Source: an uncultured Alphaproteobacteria bacterium (lineage in GTDB: Bacteria; Pseudomonadota; Alphaproteobacteria; Rhizobiales; Afifellaceae). From it: DNA of 64,000 nucleotides. Location: contig CAWJVZ010000004.1 of NCBI GenBank assembly GCA_963846475.1, forward strand, positions 1,917,453 to 1,981,452, read 5' to 3'. Made by a program: the position numbers and the translations under genes. The notes below the pieces were generated by a model. It was not told where the DNA came from. It ran no database searches and was given only the letters and a program-made list of their open reading frames with translations. Of this stretch, positions 19,942 through 53,824 are shown in pieces. Each line of letters begins with the position of its first letter. Within the stretch, counting starts at the first letter, position 1.

Positions 19942-22745
19942 TCGGCGCGCTCGGCTTCCTCTCGCCGTGGATGCTGGTGGCGCTCGCCGCGCTGCCGCTG
20001 ATCTGGCTGATCCTGCGGCTCACGCCGCCGCGCCCGCGGCTGGTTGACTTCCCGCCGACCCGCATCCTGCTCGGGCTGGAGGACCGCGACCGCACGCCGG
20101 CGCGCACGCCCTGGTGGCTGACGCTGATCCGCCTGGCGCTGGTCGCGCTGATCATCGGCGCGCTGGCCGAGCCGATCCTGCGCCCGGATCTGCGGCTGAC
20201 CACCGGCAGCGAGCCGCTCCTCGTCGTCCTCGACAACGGCTGGGATACTGCGCCCGATTTCGCCGACCGCATCGCCGCGGCCGAGACGGCGATGGCCGAA
20301 GCTGCCCGCGACGGCCGGCCGGTCTCGCTGGTCGCGACCGCCGAGCCCCGCGCGGAAAGCCTGGCGGCGGAGAACGCCGACGCCGCGCTGCGCCGGCTCG
20401 CCGCGATCGTGCCGCGCCCCTATCTCCCCGACCGCGACGCGCTGGCGGCGCGGCTCAACGAAGCGTTTCGCCGAGCGCTCGGTGGAAGTGCTCTGGCTCG
20501 CCGGCGCGCTCGACGGCGGCGACGCCGCGTCCCTCGCGGCCGCCGCTCAACCGCATCGCGGCGCGCGGCACCATCATGCAGTCGGCGCGCCCGCTGACGG
20601 TGCTGCGGCCGCCGGAGAACGGCGCCGAACGCCGTGCGCGTGCCGGTCACCCGGCTGGGCGGCAGCGGGCGACGTCGGCGGTGGCCGGCTTCGACCAGGA
20701 GGGCCGGCGCATCGTCGAGGGCGCCGCCGCCATCGGCGGCAACGGCCGCGGCATCGCCGAGATCGCGCTGCCCGCCGAGATCCGCAATTCGCTGGCGCGC
20801 TTCGCGGTCGCCGGCGAGGACAGCGCCGGCGCGGTGCAGCTCCTCGACGGGCGCTGGCAGCGGAAGTCGGTCGGCCTCATCGTCGGCGAGAGCGCCGGCG
20901 GGTCGCAGCCGCTGCTCGAGCCGCTCACCTATGTCGAGCGGGCGCTCGCGCCGACGGCCGATCTCCTCCGCTCCGACGCCGCCGAGCACGAGCGAGGCGG
21001 TGACCGCGCTGATCCGACCGCGGCGCCTCGATCATCGTGCTGACCGAGACCGGGACGCTGCCGCCCGACACCACCGCAGGCGCTTGGTCGAATGGGTGGA
21101 GGCCGGCGGCACGCTGCTTCGCTTCGCCAGCCCGAACCTCGCCGCCACCACCGTCGACGAGCTGCTGCCGGTGCGGCTCAGGCAAGGCGAGCGGGCGCTC
21201 GGCGGCTCGCTCTCCTGGGAGGAGCCGCAGCCGATCGGCGAGTTTCCCGCCGACGGCCCGTTCGCCCGCATCGCGGTGCCGCCGGACGTGCGCGGTGAAC
21301 CGGCAGGTGCTCGCCGACCCCGATGCGCTTGCGCGACGCGGAGGTCTGGGCCGAGCTCCGCGACGGCACGCCGCTGGTGACCGTCGCGCATGCGCGGCAA
21401 CGGCCGCATCGTGCTCTTCCACGTCACCGCCGATCCGCGCTGGTCGAACCTGCCGCTCTCCGGCGCGTTCGTGGAGATGCTGAACGCGATCGTCGACAGT
21501 TGCCGGCATGGTAGCGCGGCCCGCCGGGGAGACCGCCGAGGCGGCCGAAGCCGCCGCGCCGTGGCGCCCCGTCGAGGTGCTCGACGGCTACGGCGACCTC
21601 GGGCCGCCCGAGCCGGGCGCCACGCTCGTCGCCGATCATCGAGGACGCCAGCCCGAGCGCCGAGACGCCGCCCGGCATCTACGACCGCGACGGCACCGTC
21701 TTCGCCCTGAACACCGTCGCCGCCGGCGCCGTGCTGGAGCCGCTGGTGCCGCAAGCTCCATCGGCTGGCAGGGCCGCAGCGCCGCGCTGGAGCCGCGCCC
21801 CGCCACGCCGATCTGGCCGTGGCTCCTCGCCGCCGCCGCGTTGCTCGCCGTCCTCGACGGCCTTGCCGTGCTGGCGCTTTCCGGCCGCCTGTCGCGCCGC
21901 TTCGCCCGCGCCGCGGCGCTGGCGCTCGCCTTCGCGCTGGCAATACCCGGCCTCGACCCTGCGTCGCGCCCAGGACAGCGAGATCGCCGACATGGAGAAG
22001 GCGCTCGCCGCGACGACCAAGACGCAGCTCGCCTATGTCGTCACCGGCAATGCCGAGCTCGACGAGACGAGCCGCGCCGGGCTCGAGGGCCTCTCCATGT
22101 ATCTCGCCGACCGGACGGCCCTGGAGCCGGGCGAGCCGGCGCCGGTCGACGTCGCCGCCGACGAGCTCGCCTTCTACGCACTGATCTACTGGCCGATCGA
22201 CCCCGACCAGCCGGTCCCTCGGCGGAGACCATGGCCAAGCGTCGACACCTTTTTGAAGAACGGCGGCACCATCCTCTTCGACACCCGCGACGCCGGCGGG
22301 TTCTCCGGGTCCGATTTCGGCGGCAACACGCCGGAAAACCAGAAACTCCGCGACATCCTCGCCTTCGTCGACGTGCCGCCGCTCGAGCCGGTGCCGCCCG
22401 ACCACGTGCTCACCAAGGCCTTCTATCTGCTGTCGAATTTTCCCGGCCGCTGGGAAAATTCCGACCTCTGGGTGGAGAGCCTGAGCGACGCGCCGGAGGA
22501 TCCCGAGCCGGCCGGCGCGCGGCGGCGACGGGGTGTCGCCGATCCTCATCACCGGCAACGATCTTGCCTCCGCCTGGGCGGTCGACAGCGACGGGCTCTG
22601 GCTCTACCCGACCGTTCCCGCCGATCCGCGCCAGCGCGACCTCGCCTTCCGCTCCGGCGTCAACATCGTCATGTATGCGCTGACCGGCAACTACAAGGCC
22701 GACCAGGTGCACGTGCCGGCGCTGCTTGAGAGGCTCGGCCAATGA
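19938..22745 (+). pseudogene. BatA-like N-terminal double-TM / DUF4159 C-terminal membrane protein, many frameshifts
   Basis: The N-terminus MIGALGFLSPWMLVALAALPLIWLILRLTPPRP and the C-terminus SPILITGNDLASAWAVD...GVNIVMYALTGNYKADQVH are recognisable. The 2.8 kb between them is readable only by hopping across overlapping ORF fragments in all three frames. Confidence 0.65.
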
Positions 22746-45859: not shown

Positions 45860-45880
45860 CCTTCTCCCGTGGGGAGAAGG
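45860..45880. repeat. REP-like palindrome (ccttctccc-gtg-gggagaagg)
   Basis: Perfect 9-bp stem, sited in the gap between the convergent genes. Confidence 0.7.
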
Positions 45881-45953
45881 TGCCCGCGGAGCGGGCGGGC
45901 GTGCGGCGGTGGCCGGTGCGCGCGTTTTCAGGCAGCGGTAGTGTTTCAGATAA

Positions 45954-46919
45954 TCACAGGCGCCGTACGCCCTCACCCGTCGCTTGCGGCGACACCCTCT
46001 CCCCACGGGAGAGGGGATCCTCGCGCAAGGCCCTCAGCGCCTGGCCGAGCGCCTGATGGGCGGGGAGGCCGGTTCGCTCCATCTCGCCGGCGAGCCAGCC
46101 GACATGCACCAGGCGGATTTCGATGGGAATGCTGTGCAGCCCGACGGCCTGGGCGATGGCGGTGCGGTGCTTGCCGCCGAGATGGCGGACGAGCTCGCCG
46201 CCGGCGCCGATCGCCACGCCGATATCGCGCTCGGATCCCTCGAATTTCGGCGGCCGCACGTCGCGGTGGCGGAACCAGCGTTTTCGAAAACTGCGGAACT
46301 CGCGGCGCGGCACGATGCCGTGCTTGCGCATGCTGCGGATGAGGTCGACGCAATAGCGGAAGTAGGCGTCTACCTCGGCCGGGCCGGCGAGCGGCACGCC
46401 GTAGCGCCTGGCCGGGCGGCCGCGCCCGGCCGCCGCCAGCAGCTCCCCGTAGGCCCGGGTTTTGGTGAAATCGAGGTCGGCGGCGACCAGCTCGCTCACC
46501 TCCCGATGCACCGGCGAGCGGGCGAGCGGCCGCACCGCCTTGCTCCAGTCGCCGGTGTCGAGGAACGAGGTGCCGATCCAGTGCGGCCCGCGCTCGTCGC
46601 GGACGAAATCGCTGAGGCGGGCCGTGAGGCGGGCGGGATCGATGTTGAAATTGAGCGCCCGCCCAAAATACCAGCGGGCGTGGTCGGGCAGCACCAGGAC
46701 ATCGTCAGATCCGTCCAGGAGCCGCTCTACCGCCTTATCGAAAATTCTCGGAAACAGCAGCCGGGAGCCGAGGAGGGGGGTGGCGACGCCGGAGAGGCGC
46801 CGCGCGTACAAATCCGGCCGCCGCGGCCGCTCGCGCGGCGACACCCGCACATAGCGCGGGCCCGAATCGCTTGATGTCGGCAGAGGCTGATCCATTCCGT
46901 TCGTTTCGTGCTGAACCAA
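45954..46919 (-). CDS. hypothetical protein
   Basis: 321-aa ORF with normal high GC3 and no family recognised. The last ~20 codons are encoded by the REP-like element, so the true stop or C-terminus is uncertain. Confidence 0.5.
   Translation of the reverse strand: MVQHETNGMDQPLPTSSDSGPRYVRVSPRERPRRPDLYARRLSGVATPLLGSRLLFPRIFDKAVERLLDGSDDVLVLPDHARWYFGRALNFNIDPARLTARLSDFVRDERGPHWIGTSFLDTGDWSKAVRPLARSPVHREVSELVAADLDFTKTRAYGELLAAAGRGRPARRYGVPLAGPAEVDAYFRYCVDLIRSMRKHGIVPRREFRSFRKRWFRHRDVRPPKFEGSERDIGVAIGAGGELVRHLGGKHRTAIAQAVGLHSIPIEIRLVHVGWLAGEMERTGLPAHQALGQALRALREDPLSRGERVSPQATGEGVRRL
45995..46015. repeat. REP-like palindrome (ccctctccc-cac-gggagaggg), second copy
   Basis: Perfect 9-bp stem, the same motif class as 45860-45880 about 135 nt away. 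It lies inside the 3' end of ORF 45954..46919. Confidence 0.7.
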
Positions 46920-47093
46920 GGCGGCGAATTTGCGAAGGGCGCGGGGCCGGCAGGCCGGCAGAGTTCACCCGGGCCGGCGCGGTCGCGCCGAACGCTTCTG
47001 CATGATGGGCCATCAGCCCGCAAGGCGGTTCTCAGGCTGTGCAACACGCTGCGGATGTAGGGGCGATCACAGCCCAAACTTGGACGAGTCTTC

Positions 47094-47525
47094 TCAAAGG
47101 TGCTGAATCTCGACATCCCCCCACTTCTCTTTGAGGTATTCGGCGACAAGACGCCGGTGGCAGTGATGCGGTTTGTCTTCACTACAAAGCAGGCAACCTC
47201 CATCTAGCCGCGAACGATCAATAGCTTCGATTTTGCGCTGCGCCATCAACTCAAGAAACTTCTCGGCGTACGTTGACCAACTGCCATTCGATTTCTTGTA
47301 CTCGTCCAGCATGCCCTGCGTCGGTGCGAGTGCCGGAATATGCTCGTATCCAGCGTTACAAATTGCTTTCATAAAGAATCTAAGGTCGTCCTTTTTGGCG
47401 AAGCCCGCCAGCTGCGAGACGTTGTTTAGGCGCACGTCGATCACCTTGTTGACGTTGGCTTTCGAGAGGCGGGAGAAGAACCCCTCCGCGGATGTTTTGG
47501 TGAAGCCGATGGTGAAGAGCTTCAT
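47094..47525 (-). CDS. DUF488 domain-containing protein (short paralogue)
   Basis: 143 aa. MKLFTIGFTKTSAEGFFSRLSKANVNKVIDVRLNN...CLLCSEDKPHHCHRRLVAEYL is a DUF488 pattern. 4-nt overlap with the upstream gene; low GC. Confidence 0.8.
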   Translation of the reverse strand: MKLFTIGFTKTSAEGFFSRLSKANVNKVIDVRLNNVSQLAGFAKKDDLRFFMKAICNAGYEHIPALAPTQGMLDEYKKSNGSWSTYAEKFLELMAQRKIEAIDRSRLDGGCLLCSEDKPHHCHRRLVAEYLKEKWGDVEIQHL

Positions 47526-48163
47526 TCTGCAGCCCCGGAAACCCTGAGAGGCATAATGCCATTGGAAGTGACGGTGTCGGGCGCTTGTTCCCGATAGGCT
47601 ATGTGTTCGCCCTGACGAGCATATGCGTCTTCAATCACAACTTCTTCAGGGCGGAACATGTCTGAACTAGGGATTTTGAGCATGGCGACGAGGCGTTTCA
47701 GCGCATCCTCGTGCTCTTCAAGCCGACCATCGCCGAGAATATGTTTCACGGCCACGCCTTCTTCCTTCAAGCGGCGGGAGACGAGAATTGTCCGGTGGCA
47801 ATCCAAGGGTTCCTTTTCCGCGCACATCAGAGCAACACGATGGGCAACGGCTCCGATTTTGACGCGCTCAATGCCTTGCTTGAACAAGTCTGTTTGTGCC
47901 AAGAGCCCATACTGCACCTGGCCATTCCGGTAGCACCTTCTGTCTTCCGAGCGTGCGCCCAGTTCCTTTCCGAGGAACACGTATTTCACGCCCGCGGATG
48001 CGAGAGCCTTTCTGAGCGGCTCACGATTGAACTGCGGGTTCATCCGGCTGTAGGGCTTCGATCTGACATCACAGACCGCCGTGATCGAATGTAACCGCAG
48101 CAGCTCGAGGAAGCGTTCAATCGAGTTGGTGGAGTGACCAACTGTGTAAACGGCTTCTGACAT
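47522..48163 (-). CDS. DUF488 domain-containing protein (long paralogue)
   Basis: Met at 48163. VYTVGHSTNSIERFLELLRLHSITAVCDVRSKPYSRMNPQFNREPLRKALASAGVKYVFLGKELG...ALMCAEKEPLDCHR. It has a ~50-aa C-terminal extension. Confidence 0.82.
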   Translation of the reverse strand: MSEAVYTVGHSTNSIERFLELLRLHSITAVCDVRSKPYSRMNPQFNREPLRKALASAGVKYVFLGKELGARSEDRRCYRNGQVQYGLLAQTDLFKQGIERVKIGAVAHRVALMCAEKEPLDCHRTILVSRRLKEEGVAVKHILGDGRLEEHEDALKRLVAMLKIPSSDMFRPEEVVIEDAYARQGEHIAYREQAPDTVTSNGIMPLRVSGAAE

Positions 48164-48165
48164 GG

Positions 48166-48870
48166 TCAGGCCGCCCTCTCGGGCGTTATGACTGCAGCGA
48201 CCAGTTTGGTGGAGAATCCGTTGATTACCTCGGGAAGGCTGACACACAGACGCGAAGCGTCAACGTGGTAGGTTCCGTTATCGCCAGCAAAATACTTCTC
48301 TTCGACCCACGGGTCTGTAACAACGAAATTGTAGCGGTCGCCGTTAAAACTGAAGTTGGCGCGGACCCGTCGCCGGTCGGGTCCAGCGTACTGCGTTTCC
48401 ATCCCGACCACGAGGTCCAATCGGGTCGGCGAAATGAGCAGGAGCGATCCCAGCTGGCTGACGGCGGTCGCCTCCGATACCTTGTCGTGCAATCCATGGT
48501 AACTGGAAGCTTCGTTTGGCCAAAGTGAGCCCGCGACTGTGTCGGTTGCCGCGGCAATTTGCTGCCACGTTGCACGGCCAACCTTTTCCCAATAGTGATC
48601 CGCCCGGATTTGATGGTTTTCCTGATGGTGCGCATTTGGCCGCGGAGCTTGCATCGGGACAGTCACGATGTCCAGGACATCCGCCAAAGTCCCATTTTTA
48701 TACTGACGGTCCTCTTCGGATATAGCGTTGCGGTTTGCAGCGTTGATGGGGCGAATCCAGGCACCAGTAACGCCTCTCGAGACCTCCTTTCCCGCGAAGC
48801 AGCGCCCATCGGGGCGGCGGGAATTGGCAAGGCATAGGATTGTCTTCGCGTAGGGCTCCGGATCTGTCAT
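48166..48870 (-). CDS. hypothetical protein, possibly OB-fold (dual-OB-like); first gene of the DUF488 operon
   Basis: Preferred start is Met 48870 (MTDPEPYAKTILCLANSRRPDGRCFAGKEV...). The stop lies 2 nt before the next start. The OB-like assignment is from memory of similar N-termini and is unverified. Confidence 0.6.
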   Translation of the reverse strand: MTDPEPYAKTILCLANSRRPDGRCFAGKEVSRGVTGAWIRPINAANRNAISEEDRQYKNGTLADVLDIVTVPMQAPRPNAHHQENHQIRADHYWEKVGRATWQQIAAATDTVAGSLWPNEASSYHGLHDKVSEATAVSQLGSLLLISPTRLDLVVGMETQYAGPDRRRVRANFSFNGDRYNFVVTDPWVEEKYFAGDNGTYHVDASRLCVSLPEVINGFSTKLVAAVITPERAA

Positions 48871-49010
48871 GGCCCCAGAAATAGGCAATTGGGGAGTAAG
48901 ATGGAAGGCGCAATGTTGGCGTGCCTGAACCCCGGCGATTTCGGGAGGAATCGTCATTGTGCGCCGGACCATCACCGAGCTATGCGCCGCGACTAAGGCG
49001 AGACCCGCGT

Positions 49011-49886
49011 ATGACCGATCCACGGCGCCACCACTACGTGCCGCAGTTTCACCAGCGGCGCTTCGCAGACACCCATGGCCGTCTCTGGGTCTGGGACAAG
49101 GTGTCTGACCGAGTGTTTCAAACCAAGCCCGGGTCCGTCGCCGTGGAAGCTGACTTTTATCGGCTACATGATTTCGAGAAGCTTGGACATGATCCGTTCA
49201 CCATGGAAAGGCAGCTTTCCGAGATGGAGGCGCAGATGTCCCTTATTACGGAGCAATGGCTAGGCTGGCTACGGACCATTGAGCCTGGTCAACCGATCGA
49301 GATTCCTGCGCCGAACCGTGAAATCGTCTCGCAGTTCATAGCTGTCCAGTTCCTGCGAACGGCTGACACACGCGACATCCTAAGCGCCATGCATGAAGCC
49401 GATCATCCCGACAAGCGGTTGTCCAAAGAGGAGCGCACGGGATTGCACACGGAATTAATCTGGGATCTCGCCACCGTCGACCGGATCGCTGGACATATCA
49501 GGGAGGCGATCTGGATTTTTGCAAGGAATGAGACATCAACCCCCTTCCTTACATCCGATAATCCGGTTGCCTTCCGGACGAAGGACAATGCCATGTGGCT
49601 TAAGGTTGGATTCGTGACGGAAGGAAGCTATGCGGTTTATCCGCTAGCACCCGACATCATCATGTTTTGTCACGAGCGCGAATACTGGAAAAAGATTGAT
49701 GCGCTGGATGGCTGCCTCTCGCCTGTTTCGCTGGACGATGAAATGGTCGAAAGCGAGAATTCCGGACAGGTATTTATGGCCAGCCGCTTTGTCATTTCAC
49801 CGGTCGACGACTTCGCATTCGCACGAGAATTCGCAAAGACGATCGGAACGGATACGTACGCAAAACGCGGAGCAGAACTTCAATAA
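49011..49886 (+). CDS. DUF4238 domain-containing protein
   Basis: Met at 49011. The N-terminal HHYVPQFHQRRF is the DUF4238 hallmark. 291 aa, low GC, divergent from the DUF488 operon. Confidence 0.82.
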   Translation: MTDPRRHHYVPQFHQRRFADTHGRLWVWDKVSDRVFQTKPGSVAVEADFYRLHDFEKLGHDPFTMERQLSEMEAQMSLITEQWLGWLRTIEPGQPIEIPAPNREIVSQFIAVQFLRTADTRDILSAMHEADHPDKRLSKEERTGLHTELIWDLATVDRIAGHIREAIWIFARNETSTPFLTSDNPVAFRTKDNAMWLKVGFVTEGSYAVYPLAPDIIMFCHEREYWKKIDALDGCLSPVSLDDEMVESENSGQVFMASRFVISPVDDFAFAREFAKTIGTDTYAKRGAELQ

Positions 49887-49895
49887 AGCCGCTCT

Positions 49896-49960
49896 TCAGC
49901 GCGCCAGGCGCTCGCCGCCGGACAGAAGCATGCCGAGGATCACCGCGCCATAGGTCTCCC
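49896..49960 (-). pseudogene. 3'-terminal remnant of a sugar-ABC permease gene
   Basis: Encodes ...YGAVILGMLLSGGERLAR-stop. Compare the intact permease end ...YGAVIIGMLLLYGRERLSR-stop at 56842-56905; the similarity is also visible at nucleotide level. Confidence 0.6.
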
Positions 49961-49986: not shown

Positions 49987-50335
49987 TCATCGAAGCAATA
50001 TCCGGAACGCGGGCAACGCAGGCGCGAAGCACCCCCCAGGTTTAACCCTGCATGGCGCGACGTTCTGCGAGGCCGCGGCGGGAGCCTGGCTCGCCCGGAT
50101 GATGCGGGCGAGAGCTTGCTGGTCGAAGGGCTTCTTGACGCGGCAGAGATCGTGGAGGGCGCCCTCCGGCAGCTCGGCATAGCCGGTGGCCAGAACGACC
50201 GGGAGCCCAGGCCATGTCTGCCTGATGGCGCTGGCGAGCTGCAGGCCGGTCATGCCCGGCATGGCCTGGTCGGTGATGACAAGGTCGACCCGCCGTCCAT
50301 CCATGAGAAGGTCCAGCGCCTGCCGGCAGCGCCTC
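49987..50335 (-). pseudogene. truncated response-regulator receiver domain fragment
   Basis: QALDLLMDGRRVDLVITDQAMPGMTGLQLASAIRQTWPGLPVVLATGYAELPEG...KKPFDQQAL. The N-terminal acidic-pocket strand is lacking, and the fragment abuts the yidB-like stop. Confidence 0.65.
50046..50254. repeat. copy A of a ~210-220 nt duplicated receiver-domain segment
   Basis: Aligns with 52622-52840 in the same orientation, including a 53-nt identical run (cggcagagatcgtggagggcgccctccggcagctcggcatagccggtggccag). Confidence 0.85.
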
Positions 50336-52570: not shown

Positions 52571-52617
52571 GACAGATCACGACTAAGCAGCTGCTTGGCT
52601 TAGCTGGCGGCGCTTGC

Positions 52618-53824
52618 CTAGCCCTGCATGGCGCGAAGCGGCACGACGTTCTGCGGGGCCGGGGCGGGGGCTTGGCTGGCCCGGATGATTCGGGCGAGAG
52701 CTTCCTGGTCGAAGGGCTTCTTGACCCGGCAGAGATCGTGGAGGGCGCCCTCCGGCAGCTCGGCATAGCCGGTGGCCAGGACGACCGGCAGTCCGGGCCA
52801 AGCCTGCCGGATGGCGCTCGCCAGCTGCAGGCCGGTCATGGTGATGCGCTGGCGGGCGGAGGCCTCGGTCATAAAATTGACCAGCGGGCGCCCGATCACC
52901 TCCTGTCGCGCATAGCCCAAAAAACTCAGCCAGGCATCGCTGACCTGCTCGATGCGGCCTTCCACGTTGAGCGAATGCAGCGGCAGGGGCGTTTTCCGGT
53001 AGAGGGTGCGAAACCGCTCCTCGCTCTCGCGGAGCGCCTGCGCCTCGCGCCCCCAGCACGGCGAAGCGGCGGTCGAACATTGCCGCGATCAACGCCAGGA
53101 ACAGGATCAGGAAGGTCGTGGCGGCAAGCGCGAGCGCGAGATTGGTCTGGTCCAGCCACGCCTGGGGATGCGCCGCGCGGAGCGGCGAATGCGCGGTGAA
53201 CGTGGCGGCGCGCATCGCCGTGTAGTGCATGCCCGCTATCGCTAGCCCCATCGCACTTGCGGCAACCAGCTTTTGGGCGATCATCGTCGCGCGGAACGAA
53301 AGCCAAAGAGCCGCGGTGGCGGCGGCAATCGCGATGAGGACGGAAACCGCCACGAGCCCGTCGCGATAGGAAAGCTCGGCCGGCATGCGCATCGCCTCCA
53401 TGCCGGTGTAGTGCATGCCGACGATGCCCAGGCCCATCAAGGCGCCGCTCAGCCCCAGCGAAGCCGGCCCGGCGTCGCTGCGGTTGACCACGAAGAAGCC
53501 GACGCCGGCAGCACCGACGGCGAGGAGCAGCGACAGGACGGTCAGCGACGGATCGTAGCTCGCCGGCATCGGCATCTCGAAGGCGAGCATGGCGACGAAG
53601 TGCATGGACCAGATGCCGCCGCCCATCGCAAAGGCGGCCGCGGCGAGCCAGGCATATTTTCCGGGCCCGGCACCGCCTGCACGCACCCGCCCGGCAAGGT
53701 CGAGCGCCGTGTAGGAGGCAACGCACGCGATCAGCATCGAGAGGACGACCAGCCGCGTGTCATGGCTGCCTGAGATGATCATTCCTTCGTCACCCGCGGT
53801 GCTCCTTCGGAACCGCGGGTTCAT
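52618..53824 (-). pseudogene. MHYT-domain sensor fused to a PAS domain and only the C-terminal half of a receiver domain; one frameshift; kinase core absent
   Basis: Three MHYT/MHFV motifs are present (WSMHFVAML, VGMHYTGMEA, AGMHYTAMRA). There is a frameshift near 53040-53060. The PAS piece ALRESEERFRTLYRKTPLPLHSLNVEGRIEQVSDAWLSFLGYARQEVIGRPL... joins directly to ...MTGLQLASAIRQAWPGLPVVLATGYAELPEG. Confidence 0.7.
52622..52840. repeat. copy B of the duplicated receiver-domain segment
   Basis: See copy A (50046-50254). Confidence 0.85.

What the first reader, a model, noticed from the sequence alone, without database searches (positions are those of the whole stretch)
46950..49890. Low-GC island: a tightly coupled OB-like / DUF488 / DUF488 operon facing a DUF4238 gene, a candidate uncharacterised (defence-like) module
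SEEN: base composition drops sharply. For example, 47341-47400 has 25 G+C of 60, against 45 of 60 in 20041-20100. Three minus-strand genes are packed for translational coupling. They are 48166..48870 (Cys-containing N-terminus KTILCLANSRRPDGRCFAGKE), 47522..48163 (long DUF488, 2-nt gap) and 47094..47525 (short DUF488, 4-nt overlap). A divergent DUF4238 gene (HHYVPQFHQRRF) starts 140 nt away. The right edge abuts gene scars (a permease tail and a receiver fragment). The left edge abuts a REP-rich polysaccharide cluster. KNOWN: all four families are domains of unknown function. INFERENCE: this is an accessory, horizontally acquired, multi-component cassette in a rearrangement hot spot. That is the usual signature of defence or nucleic-acid-targeting systems. 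I recall DUF4238 proteins occurring in defence-island contexts but cannot verify this here. Two divergent DUF488 paralogues in one operon suggest a heteromeric or sensor/effector arrangement.
Basis: partly seen in the sequence, partly recalled or inferred. Interest (0 to 1): 0.72.

Follow-up and report, generated by a model that had tools for sequence, protein, structure and literature searches.

The report
Imported candidate phage-defence gene islet
A 2.8-kb low-GC insert carries a three-gene operon (a double-OB DNA-binding protein and two DUF488 enzymes) already catalogued as the untested phage-defence candidate PDC-M45, next to a DUF4238 gene; it is a real, mobile module, but it is not a new kind of system and its function is still unproven.

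Summary
Window 47094-49886 is the GC minimum of the window (0.555 against 0.681; GC3 0.61-0.67 against 0.81-0.89). It holds three translationally coupled minus-strand genes and a divergent DUF4238 gene.

The trio matches PADLOC PDC-M45A/B/C (E 6e-83, 1e-89, 2e-73) and Pfam DuOB, DUF488 and DUF488-N3a. PDC-M45 is one of 145 untested "guilt-by-embedding" candidates.

The trio is strictly syntenic in about 35 genomes from at least six phyla. It is GC-poor relative to its host in 29 of 32 loci. Its neighbours vary, and they recurrently include type III CBASS with CapH/CapP, restriction genes and integrases. Plasmids carry it; no phage record does.

Both DUF488 paralogues keep the same candidate active site (DxR, CxE, CHR, H). 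DuOB is a confident tandem-OB model with only weak resemblance to HIN-200, RPA and CST.

DUF4238 is a facultative neighbour. The same four-gene block recurs in other contexts, but 34 of 35 representative trios lack it.

My best reading is a horizontally acquired islet of two defence candidates. In this reading DuOB targets nucleic acid and two cysteine-dependent DUF488 enzymes process termini or nucleotide adducts. The identification is firm, the defence role is plausible, and the chemistry is speculative.

The parts
48166..48870 (-). DuOB protein (234 aa), first gene of the operon; PADLOC PDC-M45A. It is a tandem OB-fold, presumed nucleic-acid-binding subunit. Invariant residues include C13, S17, G22, C24, W38, R40, P41, D67, E84, D129 and T185-D186.
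   Evidence: Pfam DuOB 4.1e-59, 200.6 bits against a cut-off of 27. PDC-M45A 6.2e-83. AF2 pLDDT 95.8, two beta-barrel halves. Foldseek best matches are HIN-200, CST, RPA and POT1, all weak. Conservation.
47522..48163 (-). Long DUF488 protein (213 aa); PADLOC PDC-M45B. DUF488 core (residues 1-142) plus a helical C-terminal extension of about 70 aa. Candidate active site: G9-H10-S11, D32-x-R34, C114-x-E116, C122-H123-R124, H141.
   Evidence: Pfam DUF488 9e-26. PDC-M45B 9.6e-90. AF2 pLDDT 82; strand 110-114, loop, helix 123-134. Invariant columns. The start lies 2 nt after the DuOB stop.
47094..47525 (-). Short DUF488 protein (143 aa); PADLOC PDC-M45C, Pfam DUF488-N3a ('active N3 subclade'). Candidate active site: D30-x-R32, C114-x-E116, C122-H123-R124, H142. 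It is the constant DUF488 partner of DuOB, including in the plasmid variants.
   Evidence: Pfam DUF488 2.2e-23 and DUF488-N3a 5.5e-11, 43.3 bits against 27. PDC-M45C 2.1e-73. ATGA overlap with the upstream gene. Orthologues on plasmids at E 1e-51 to 1e-55.
48871..49010 (.). 140-nt divergent intergenic region between DuOB and DUF4238; presumed to hold both promoters (inferred).
   Evidence: Gene coordinates. It is conserved as part of the 78.5% identical block shared with L042. No sigma-70 consensus match and no Rfam match.
49011..49886 (+). DUF4238 protein (291 aa), divergently transcribed. It is a facultative neighbour of the trio and is probably a separate single-gene defence candidate.
   Evidence: Pfam DUF4238 4.7e-32, 111.9 bits against 27. 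Only a weak, partial match to PADLOC DUF4238-Pers (1.1e-4). A family member protects E. coli against T7 (PMC9122126). Co-location with the trio in L006/L041, L042, L044 and L045.
47094..49852 (.). Extent of the mobile four-gene block: DNA homology to metagenomic contig L042/L043 begins and ends here.
   Evidence: blastn gives 78.5% identity over 2,776 nt, window 47094-49852, with no homology beyond. The GC step lies at about 47000-47050 and 49850-49900.

Best explanation
Window 47094-49886 is a horizontally acquired 2.8-kb islet with two adjacent conflict-system candidates.

(1) PDC-M45 is a self-contained three-gene operon whose products work together, probably as a complex. DuOB, a tandem-OB protein, is the nucleic-acid-binding or targeting subunit (ssDNA, DNA ends or a replication intermediate). 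The short (N3a) and long DUF488 proteins are two catalytically competent, cysteine-dependent Rossmannoid enzymes with different substrate pockets. I propose they act in succession on a phosphate or sugar moiety at a nucleic-acid terminus, or on a nucleotide or ADP-ribose-type adduct. This would disable invading DNA or stop an infected cell.

(2) DUF4238 is a separately acting single-gene defence candidate that often travels with this trio.

Shown: identity with PDC-M45; strict synteny and coupling; a fused DuOB::DUF488 lineage; horizontal mobility; recurrent placement beside known defence systems; conservation of the same motif set in both paralogues; a tandem-OB fold.

Inferred: complex formation, DNA binding, the cysteine-based chemistry, the anti-phage outcome, and any cooperation with DUF4238.
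For: Identity: PADLOC PDC-M45A/B/C at 6e-83, 1e-89 and 2e-73; Pfam DuOB, DUF488 and DUF488-N3a above cut-off.

One functional unit:
- The trio is adjacent and co-oriented, mostly with overlapping or abutting genes, in essentially all of 37 genome loci from Alphaproteobacteria, Nitrospirota, Acidobacteriota, Chloroflexota, Desulfobacterota, Actinomycetota and Omnitrophota.
- No other neighbour is conserved.
- Two different 443-aa DuOB::long-DUF488 fusions exist, in L012 and P0246.

Mobility:
- The trio is GC-poorer than its flanks in 29 of 32 loci, by up to 0.18.
- The same four-gene block occurs in three unrelated contexts.
- 15 plasmid records carry DuOB.

Defence association:
- PDC-M45 was defined from cassettes embedded in BREX, DISARM or type I R-M systems (10.1101/2024.01.29.577857).
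- The trio lies directly downstream of capH-capP of a type III CBASS in L014, L016, L027 and Agrobacterium pAt1D1108a.
- L042 has an integrase, Mrr, HsdR and a HATPase_c_3 protein.
- L044 has a Bub-like ubiquitin-like system with HTH and M78 genes.
- L045 has HepT/MNT pairs.
- Type I, IIG and III R-M hits occur among the neighbours.

Enzymes:
- Both paralogues keep G, DxR, S, Y, CxE, P, CHR and H invariant across phyla.
- The AF2 model places C114 at the end of a strand, followed by a loop and a helix that starts at C122-H-R.
- Foldseek's best-probability hits include tetrapyrrole methylases.
- On small plasmids the long DUF488 is replaced by DUF4326 or mSLOG-DUF4326. Published work assigns DUF4326 to the rhodanese-phosphatase superfamily and proposes that it processes ribose-linked phosphates of ADPr derivatives (PMC9503650).

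DuOB: pLDDT 95.8, two OB barrels, and nearest analogues that are tandem-OB DNA binders.

DUF4238: a family member alone gives strong resistance to T7 (PMC9122126).
Against: - No experiment on PDC-M45, DuOB or any DUF488 protein was found in the searchable literature. PADLOC lists it among 145 untested candidates.
- Most of the 35 representative loci have ordinary metabolic or housekeeping neighbours such as PolA, PurA, IlvD, tsf/rpsB and transporters. In this window, outside the four island genes, the PADLOC scan of the other 50 called genes gave only isolated mad3 and mad8 hits.
- Structural matches are weak for both proteins: E >= 2.8e-3 with TM 0.3-0.4 for DuOB, and E >= 0.015 for DUF488. 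DNA binding and the phosphatase-like chemistry are therefore not demonstrated.
- No PTP or rhodanese chain is in the top 50 for DUF488.
- hhalign of DUF488 against one DUF4326 sequence aligns only the KPxxCH motif (probability 1%).
- CapH/CapP in the CBASS-linked loci may regulate only CBASS.
Confidence: 0.55

Rival explanations
1. The trio is a mobile nucleic-acid 'healing' or counter-defence module rather than an immune effector. DuOB would bind damaged or adduct-bearing ssDNA or RNA. The two DUF488/DUF4326-type enzymes would remove phosphate, ADP-ribose or similar adducts placed by toxins or by a host's defences. This would benefit the plasmid or island that carries the trio.
For: - DUF4326, which replaces the long DUF488 on small plasmids, has been proposed to process ribose-linked phosphates of ADPr derivatives.
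- One plasmid version carries an mSLOG nucleotide-sensor domain.
- The module sits among maintenance genes (ParA, CcdAB, Rep) on 10-36 kb plasmids.
- Single loci have RtcB, PolA, Ogt or Prim-Pol as neighbours.
- Most loci lack defence neighbours.
Against: - No ligase, kinase or other repair partner is conserved next to the trio.
- The cassette was found embedded inside BREX, DISARM or type I R-M systems.
- It sits next to CBASS in four loci.
- It is absent from 50,697 phage records and from IMG/VR by pattern scan. Counter-defence genes are common in both places.
Confidence: 0.2
2. The four genes form one obligate system: DUF4238 is a functional component (sensor, effector or regulator) of a four-gene variant of PDC-M45.
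For: - The four-gene block is conserved as a unit in the window, in L042/L043 (78.5% DNA identity ending exactly at the gene block), in Rhodopseudomonas telluris and in L044, each in a different genomic context.
- In L045 a divergent trio has DUF4238 downstream in tandem, so linkage survived rearrangement.
- Several further DUF4238 homologues share a longest-contig length with trio proteins.
- L049 has DUF4238 near a different DUF488 fusion.
Against: - Only 1 of 35 species-representative trio loci has a DUF4238 within 10 kb, even with a family HMM.
- 4 of 7 DUF4238 homologues chosen only for contig length stand alone.
- In L042 the DUF4238 reading frame is broken while the trio is intact.
- A DUF4238 protein works alone in E. 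coli.
Confidence: 0.12
3. The trio is an addiction or abortive-infection-like stability module (toxin plus neutralisers). Its main role is to retain the plasmid or island that carries it, and any phage effect is incidental.
For: It is carried on small non-mobilisable plasmids next to CcdAB, RelE/ParE and partition genes. It lies next to HepT/MNT and PemK pairs in metagenomic loci. It has a compact, tightly coupled operon.
Against: Both DUF488 paralogues look like active enzymes, not an enzyme and an inhibitor. The trio persists in chromosomes with housekeeping neighbours and no mobile-element genes. No size or organisation typical of type II toxin-antitoxin pairs is seen.
Confidence: 0.08
4. 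The genes are ordinary core or housekeeping genes of this lineage whose low GC is incidental.
For: Some homologous loci sit among housekeeping genes such as tsf/rpsB and polA.
Against: The block is the GC and GC3 minimum of the window. The trio has a patchy distribution across unrelated phyla with variable neighbours. The trio's GC stays at 0.42-0.62 in hosts whose GC ranges from 0.35 to 0.75. The same block occurs elsewhere beside an integrase. Degraded genes flank the insert.
Confidence: 0.03

Closest known systems
PADLOC phage-defence candidate PDC-M45 (Payne et al. 2024, bioRxiv 10.1101/2024.01.29.577857)
   Same: All three proteins match the A, B and C models end to end, in the same order and on one strand. 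This is the same system.
   Different: Nothing in the trio differs. PDC-M45 as defined has no DUF4238 partner. It is an untested candidate, so membership says nothing about mechanism.
Plasmid-borne DuOB + DUF488-N3a + DUF4326 (or mSLOG-DUF4326) cassettes of Enterobacteriaceae and Acinetobacter
   Same: They have the same DuOB (Pfam 7e-47, 2e-47), an orthologue of the short DUF488 (E 1e-51 to 1e-55), and the same gene order.
   Different: The long DUF488 is replaced by DUF4326, which shares only the C-x-[CE]-x-P-x-x-C-H motif by eye. hhalign is not significant.
Single-gene DUF4238 defence (Rousset et al. 2022, P2-like prophage hotspot; DefenseFinder 'Rst_DUF4238', name from my own knowledge)
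   Same: It belongs to the same Pfam family (4.7e-32). It is a stand-alone gene in variable accessory DNA.
   Different: It has only a weak, partial match to the PADLOC model built on the validated clade (1.1e-4, residues 4-126). No activity data exist for this clade.
HIN-200 domains of AIM2/IFI16/p202/p204, and RPA/CST/POT1 tandem OB modules
   Same: Each has two consecutive OB barrels in one module of about 200 aa and binds DNA. The HIN proteins are innate-immune DNA sensors. These are the top Foldseek matches.
   Different: There is no sequence similarity (7-11% identity). TM is 0.3-0.37 and E >= 2.8e-3. DuOB has its own invariant CLANSR...C.AG...W.RP signature. This is a resemblance of architecture only.
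Rhodanese / protein-tyrosine-phosphatase superfamily, 'RapZ-C-DUF488-DUF4326 clade' (Burroughs & Aravind 2023, NAR Genom Bioinform 5:lqad029; content recalled from memory because the paper is not held)
   Same: It has a Rossmannoid alpha/beta fold. A conserved Cys sits at the end of a strand, followed by a loop and a helix bearing Arg. Tetrapyrrole methylases, which that paper places in the superfamily, are among the best Foldseek probabilities.
   Different: The loop is C-x7-C-H-R rather than C-x5-R. No PTP, rhodanese or RapZ chain appears in the top 50. No PDB sequence or profile hit was found.

Membership tests
PADLOC PDC-M45 | Three adjacent co-oriented genes matching the PDC-M45A, PDC-M45B and PDC-M45C HMMs | tested here: met
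   E 6.2e-83, 9.6e-90 and 2.1e-73, each covering nearly the whole profile. The genes are contiguous on the minus strand.
PADLOC PDC-M45 | Anti-phage activity | not testable with these tools
   It is listed among 145 untested candidates. No paper mentions PDC-M45.
Pfam DuOB (PF22557) | Score above the gathering cut-off over the full dual-OB profile | tested here: met
   200.6 bits against 27, profile positions 1-210 of 210. The AF2 model shows two beta-barrel halves at pLDDT 95.8.
Pfam DUF488 (PF04343) | Score above the gathering cut-off | tested here: met
   Long form 91.3 bits and short form 83.6 bits, against 22.2.
Pfam DUF488-N3a ('active N3 subclade', PF22751) | Score above the gathering cut-off (27 bits) | tested here: met
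   The short paralogue scores 43.3 bits. The long paralogue does not belong, at 12.9 bits.
Pfam DUF488-N3i ('inactive N3 subclade', PF22752) | Score above cut-off, or loss of the conserved catalytic motif | tested here: not met
   The short paralogue scores 14.8 bits against 27 and the long one has no hit. Both paralogues keep DxR, CxE, CHR and H.
Pfam DUF4238 (PF14022) | Score above the gathering cut-off | tested here: met
   111.9 bits against 27, profile positions 1-277 of 281.
Validated DUF4238 defence system (PADLOC 'DUF4238-Pers' model) | Full-length match to the model of the validated clade | tested here: inconclusive
   E 1.1e-4, 19.8 bits, only residues 4-126 against profile positions 4-117 of 309.
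Rhodanese / PTP superfamily | Rossmannoid fold with a catalytic Cys at a strand end, a phosphate-binding loop and an Arg at the start of the next helix; structural similarity to known members | tested here: inconclusive
   Strand 110-114, loop, helix 123-134, with invariant C114 and C122-H123-R124. Foldseek gives only weak hits, none to PTP, rhodanese or RapZ in the top 50. Tetrapyrrole methylases reach probability 0.93-0.98 at E 0.016-0.09.
HIN-200 / RPA-type tandem OB DNA binders | Significant structural or sequence similarity to HIN or RPA DBD pairs | tested here: not met
   The best match is 5yzw, E 2.8e-3, TM 0.32/0.37, 11% identity. No PDB sequence hit. This is architectural resemblance only.
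Genomic island (horizontally acquired accessory DNA) | Atypical composition, discrete boundaries, and presence of the same block in unrelated contexts | tested here: met
   GC 0.555 against 0.681, about 3.7 sd below the window mean. GC3 is 0.61-0.67 against 0.81-0.89. Homology to L042 ends at 47094 and 49852. The contexts differ in L041, L042 and L044. No integrase, tRNA or flanking direct repeat lies at the window site.

The most novel reading that the evidence does not exclude
DuOB-DUF488-DUF488 may be a real immune system of a mechanistically new type. In this reading a HIN-like tandem-OB subunit recognises phage ssDNA or DNA ends. It then directs two different cysteine-dependent rhodanese/phosphatase-like enzymes (interchangeable with mSLOG-DUF4326) to carry out a two-step terminus or ADP-ribose-type modification of nucleic acid. 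No characterised defence system uses such chemistry. A specific DUF4238 clade would act as a cooperating partner, and the system could be wired to the CapH/CapP DNA-damage switch in some hosts.
Probability: 0.25. Interest if true: 0.75.

Novelty: new member of a known kind. Interest (0 to 1): 0.4.

Why it matters
DUF488 is a very large family. The capped word-index search with one query scored more than 7,700 homologous 90%-identity clusters. The family includes E. coli YeaO. No solved structure was found and no biochemical study of it was found in the searchable literature.

DuOB has about 3,500 clusters at 50% identity and is equally unstudied. PDC-M45 offers a compact, three-gene, plasmid-borne and clonable setting in which the activity of DUF488 and DUF4326 enzymes could be pinned down.

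If the system proves to be defensive, it would add an OB-based DNA sensor coupled to cysteine-dependent phosphatase-like chemistry to bacterial immunity.

Tried and rejected
- Exact-sequence look-up of the window's own DuOB protein gave no genomic context. The cluster look-up gave no names or accessions. The source organism and its sister strains therefore could not be compared.
- I could not read Burroughs & Aravind 2023, which I recall as defining the RapZ-C-DUF488-DUF4326 clade and which I assume introduced DuOB and DUF488-N3a. It is not held by DOI, PMID or my guessed PMC id. Only its citation was confirmed, so what I say about it is from memory.
- PDB sequence and profile searches for all proteins returned nothing useful.
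- The IMG/VR scan and the phage tblastn for DuOB found nothing.
- hhalign of the DUF488 profile against one DUF4326 sequence aligned only a 16-column motif.
- I first took P0122 (308 aa) as a long::short DUF488 fusion. Inspection showed an internal tandem duplication of the long paralogue, probably an assembly artefact, so I dropped it.
- I first read the CapH/CapP pairs upstream of the trio as its own regulators. They lie between the trio and a divergent type III CBASS, so they may belong to CBASS.
- Promoter, terminator, tRNA and Rfam scans of the island gave nothing above background.
- The 'permease tail' scar could not be confirmed.
- Per-locus defence annotation was not possible. The alignment trick returns only family counts, so the fraction of loci with defence neighbours (roughly a quarter to a third) is an estimate.

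Full report
**1. The observation**

The composition drop is real and sharp. GC falls from about 0.70 to 0.52-0.58 between roughly 47000 and 49900. The block 47094-49886 has GC 0.555 against 0.681 for the rest of the window. It is the minimum of all 2.8-kb windows (mean 0.675, sd 0.031). Third-position GC of the four genes is 0.61-0.67, against 0.81-0.89 in the genes on either side.

- 47094-47525, 143 aa
- 47522-48163, 213 aa
- 48166-48870, 234 aa

The junctions are a 4-nt ATGA overlap and a 2-nt gap, TGAccATG. The divergent gene starts at 49011, 140 nt from the DuOB start.

**2. What the genes are**

Pfam assigns four families:
- the 'OB-like' protein to DuOB, the dual OB-containing domain (4.1e-59)
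- both downstream proteins to DUF488
- the short one also to DUF488-N3a, the 'active N3 subclade'
- the divergent gene to DUF4238

NCBIfam has no model for any of the four.

The decisive result is PADLOC. The three operon proteins match PDC-M45A, B and C at 6e-83, 1e-89 and 2e-73, over nearly the full profiles. PDC systems are 145 candidates that Payne et al. derived from cassettes embedded in BREX, DISARM or type I R-M systems. The authors explicitly call them untested. Their supplementary table lists the three-family cassette CAS_00153 as 'PDC-M45'. No paper in the library mentions PDC-M45, and none characterises DUF488 or DuOB. The module is therefore known as a candidate, but nothing is known about how it works.

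**3. Is the trio a unit?**

A scan of 185,579 species-representative genomes with two DuOB peptide patterns returned 37 loci. In essentially all of them a long DUF488 and a short DUF488 follow DuOB directly, usually with overlapping stop and start codons.
- L034, L035 and L040 have the permuted order long-short-DuOB.
- L012 encodes a DuOB::long-DUF488 fusion. An independent 443-aa protein (P0246) has the same architecture, so this fused lineage is real.
- A supposed long::short fusion (P0122) turned out to be an internal duplication, and I discarded it.
- All-against-all comparison of six genes on each side found no other conserved neighbour.

The hosts span Alphaproteobacteria, Nitrospirota, Acidobacteriota, Chloroflexota, Desulfobacterota, Actinomycetota and Omnitrophota. 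A profile search of 1.84 billion representative proteins found 3,488 DuOB clusters at E <= 1e-3. Nearly all are about 230 aa stand-alone proteins.

**4. Mobility**

The trio is GC-poorer than its flanks in 29 of 32 loci, by 0.12-0.18 in high-GC hosts.

The window block is 78.5% identical at the DNA level to metagenomic contig L042/L043 over window 47094-49852, and not beyond. In that contig it lies between a tyrosine integrase with Mrr and a HATPase_c_3 protein with HsdR. Rhodopseudomonas telluris has the same four genes between unrelated genes.

DuOB is on 15 plasmid records. It is on none of 50,697 phage records and was not found in IMG/VR.

At the window site there is no integrase, tRNA or flanking direct repeat. 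The right flank is degraded. It holds a receiver-domain fragment (profile positions 40-84 only) that is a 91% copy of 52640-52840.

**5. Defence context**

In this window the scan of 50 called genes outside the four island genes gave only isolated mad3 and mad8 hits in PADLOC. Here the islet stands alone.

Across the 35 non-redundant representative loci, most immediate neighbours are ordinary genes such as PolA, PurA, IlvD and transporters. A minority are clearly defensive:
- In L014, L016 and L027 (Acidobacteriota) and on Agrobacterium plasmid pAt1D1108a, the layout is the same. A minus-strand type III CBASS (NucC or another effector, TRIP13, HORMA, cyclase) is followed by plus-strand capH-capP, then DuOB and the two DUF488 genes.
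- L044 has a Bub-like ubiquitin-like system with HTH and M78 genes.
- L045 has HepT/MNT pairs.
- Type I, IIG and III restriction genes and PDC-S01 appear among the neighbours.

This fits Payne et al.'s remark that embedding-derived candidates associate with other systems less often than enrichment-derived ones. It supports a defence role but does not prove one.

**6. The proteins**

*DuOB.* The model is very confident (pLDDT 95.8, pTM 0.92) and consists of two beta-barrel halves. The best PDB matches are the tandem-OB HIN-200 domains of p204, IFI16 and p202, then CST, RPA, POT1 and SSB. All are weak: E >= 2.8e-3, TM 0.3-0.37, about 10% identity. This is a resemblance of architecture and not membership. 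Invariant residues cluster on the first three strands (C13-L-A-N-S-R, C24-x-A-G, W38-x-R-P), together with E84-N, D129 and T185-D-P.

*Long DUF488.* The model has pLDDT 82 and shows a three-layer alpha/beta core plus a helical extension. Foldseek finds only generic Rossmannoid matches. Tetrapyrrole methylases are among the highest probabilities. No PDB entry matches by sequence or profile.

*Both DUF488 paralogues.* A joint alignment of 21 long and 18 short orthologues shows that both keep G, D-x-R, S, Y, C-x-E, P, C-H-R and a C-terminal H. Both therefore look like active enzymes whose differences lie in the substrate-facing loops:
- long form: GHS, RS.PYSR..PQFN
- short form: GFTK, RLNN.SQLAGF.K

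In the model, C114 ends a strand, and C122-H-R124 begins the next helix. That geometry recalls the Cys-loop-Arg site of phosphatases and rhodaneses. From memory, Burroughs & Aravind (2023) place DUF488 with RapZ-C and DUF4326 in that superfamily and predict DNA-end processing roles in conflict systems. I could not read the paper and confirmed only that it exists.

**7. A modular variant**

On small Enterobacteriaceae and Acinetobacter plasmids the cassette is DuOB, an orthologue of the short DUF488 (E 1e-51 to 1e-55), and DUF4326 in place of the long DUF488. In Acinetobacter the third protein is mSLOG-DUF4326. Iyer et al. (2022) describe DUF4326 as a rhodanese-phosphatase clade, often fused to SLOG, Macro or NADAR domains. 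They propose that it processes ribose-linked terminal phosphates of ADPr derivatives.

This suggests that DuOB and the N3a enzyme form the constant core, and that the second enzyme is exchangeable. It also points to phosphate or sugar chemistry on nucleotides or nucleic-acid termini. My attempt to show DUF488-DUF4326 homology by hhalign aligned only the K-P-x-x-C-H motif.

**8. DUF4238**

One family member from a P2-like prophage hotspot gives strong resistance to T7 on its own. The window protein matches Pfam strongly but matches the PADLOC model only weakly and partially.

Seen from the trio side, only L006 among the 35 non-redundant representative loci has a DUF4238 within 10 kb, even with a family HMM.

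Seen from the DUF4238 side, I looked up seven homologues (55-75% identity) chosen only for contig length:
- Two are next to a trio: L044 divergent, and L045 in tandem with a divergent DuOB at Pfam E 4.9e-4.
- One is near a different DUF488 fusion (L049).
- Four stand alone.

In L042 the DUF4238 frame is broken while the trio is intact. Several more homologues share a longest-contig length with trio proteins. The linkage is recurrent and more than chance, but it is not obligate. I read DUF4238 as a separate unit that commonly travels with this trio, and I keep 'facultative partner' open.

**9. Verdict**

The islet is a new instance of a catalogued but untested candidate system, together with a DUF4238 gene.
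- Identification and horizontal origin are firm (about 0.95).
- A role in phage or mobile-element conflict is plausible (about 0.55).
- The proposed mechanism is an inference (about 0.25). In it, DuOB targets nucleic acid and two cysteine-dependent DUF488 enzymes process termini or adducts.

The main rival is a mobile repair or counter-defence function.

My analysis adds three things to the catalogue entry: the DUF4238 linkage, the DUF488/DUF4326 swap on clinical plasmids, and the repeated position downstream of CBASS capH-capP. Some of these may already be in the paper I could not read.

Noticed in passing
window 50054-50254 and 52640-52840; genes 49987-50304(-), 52583-53824(-), 52618-52965(-): A 201-nt direct repeat (91% identity) duplicates the C-terminal half of a receiver domain. 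The MHYT sensor gene at 52583-53824 runs into an out-of-frame Arg/Pro-rich tail. A second frame reads from the start of a PAS-like segment straight into the receiver half. This looks like a hybrid sensor kinase with an internal deletion, plus a displaced copy of its 3' end bracketing the YidB-like and DUF2382 genes.
   Followed up: partly
L051 5983-7646 (Citrobacter freundii pCF1807-5); L052 5995-7683 (Acinetobacter pittii pApiAE13b); 15 plasmid records: Small clinical-isolate plasmids carry DuOB, an orthologue of the short DUF488, and DUF4326 in place of the long DUF488. In Acinetobacter the third protein is mSLOG-DUF4326. The cassette sits beside ParA, CcdAB, Rep and RelE/ParE genes.
   Followed up: partly
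L014 5503-11758; L016 5728-11759; L027 2970-7018; L053 459-7845 (Agrobacterium pAt1D1108a): In four loci from two phyla the trio lies directly downstream of, and co-oriented with, the capH-capP pair of a divergent type III CBASS (cyclase, HORMA, TRIP13, NucC or another effector). I could not tell whether CapH/CapP also controls the trio.
   Followed up: partly
L049 8003-10393: About 1.8 kb downstream of a DUF4238 homologue lies a 293-aa protein with an unknown N-terminal domain fused to DUF488. It is followed by a 286-aa protein with no Pfam match whose N-terminus (…ELVCTAGV…FVRLYP…) recalls the DuOB signature. This may be a further OB-plus-DUF488 variant.
   Followed up: partly
L044 786-4060; L053 4013-5574: A small DUF2188 gene accompanies the HTH and M78 regulator pair in two places: next to a Bub-like ubiquitin-like system (BubE, ThiF, Multi_ubiq) in L044 and next to CBASS on the Agrobacterium plasmid. 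In both cases this is beside the trio.
   Followed up: no
L042 3252-4107 (and L043): In the closest relative of the window block, DUF4238 is split into two ORFs (133 and 135 aa) while the trio is intact. It is either a pseudogene or a frameshift error in a long-read metagenome assembly.
   Followed up: no
P0122 (308 aa, homologue of the long DUF488): This protein contains an internal tandem duplication of about 140 residues of the DUF488 core, joined by a short junk linker. It is probably an assembly artefact and could be mistaken for a two-domain fusion.
   Followed up: yes
window 45860-46015: A 40-nt inverted repeat (75% complementary, 76 nt apart) lies between the glycosyltransferase gene and the 321-aa ORF with no Pfam match.
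   Followed up: no
window, genes outside 47000-49900 (not located individually): Two window proteins match PADLOC mad3 (best 8.9e-36) and one matches mad8 (1e-14). These are probably generic domain matches and not a MADS system, but I did not identify which genes they are.
   Followed up: no
window 47094-47525 and 47522-48163 against PHROGs: The DUF488 domains match two phage protein families of unknown function, as the C-terminal or middle part of longer (313-346 aa) proteins: phrog_2450 at 2.5e-14 and phrog_14939 at 1.7e-10. DUF488 is therefore present in phages even though DuOB was not found there.
   Followed up: no
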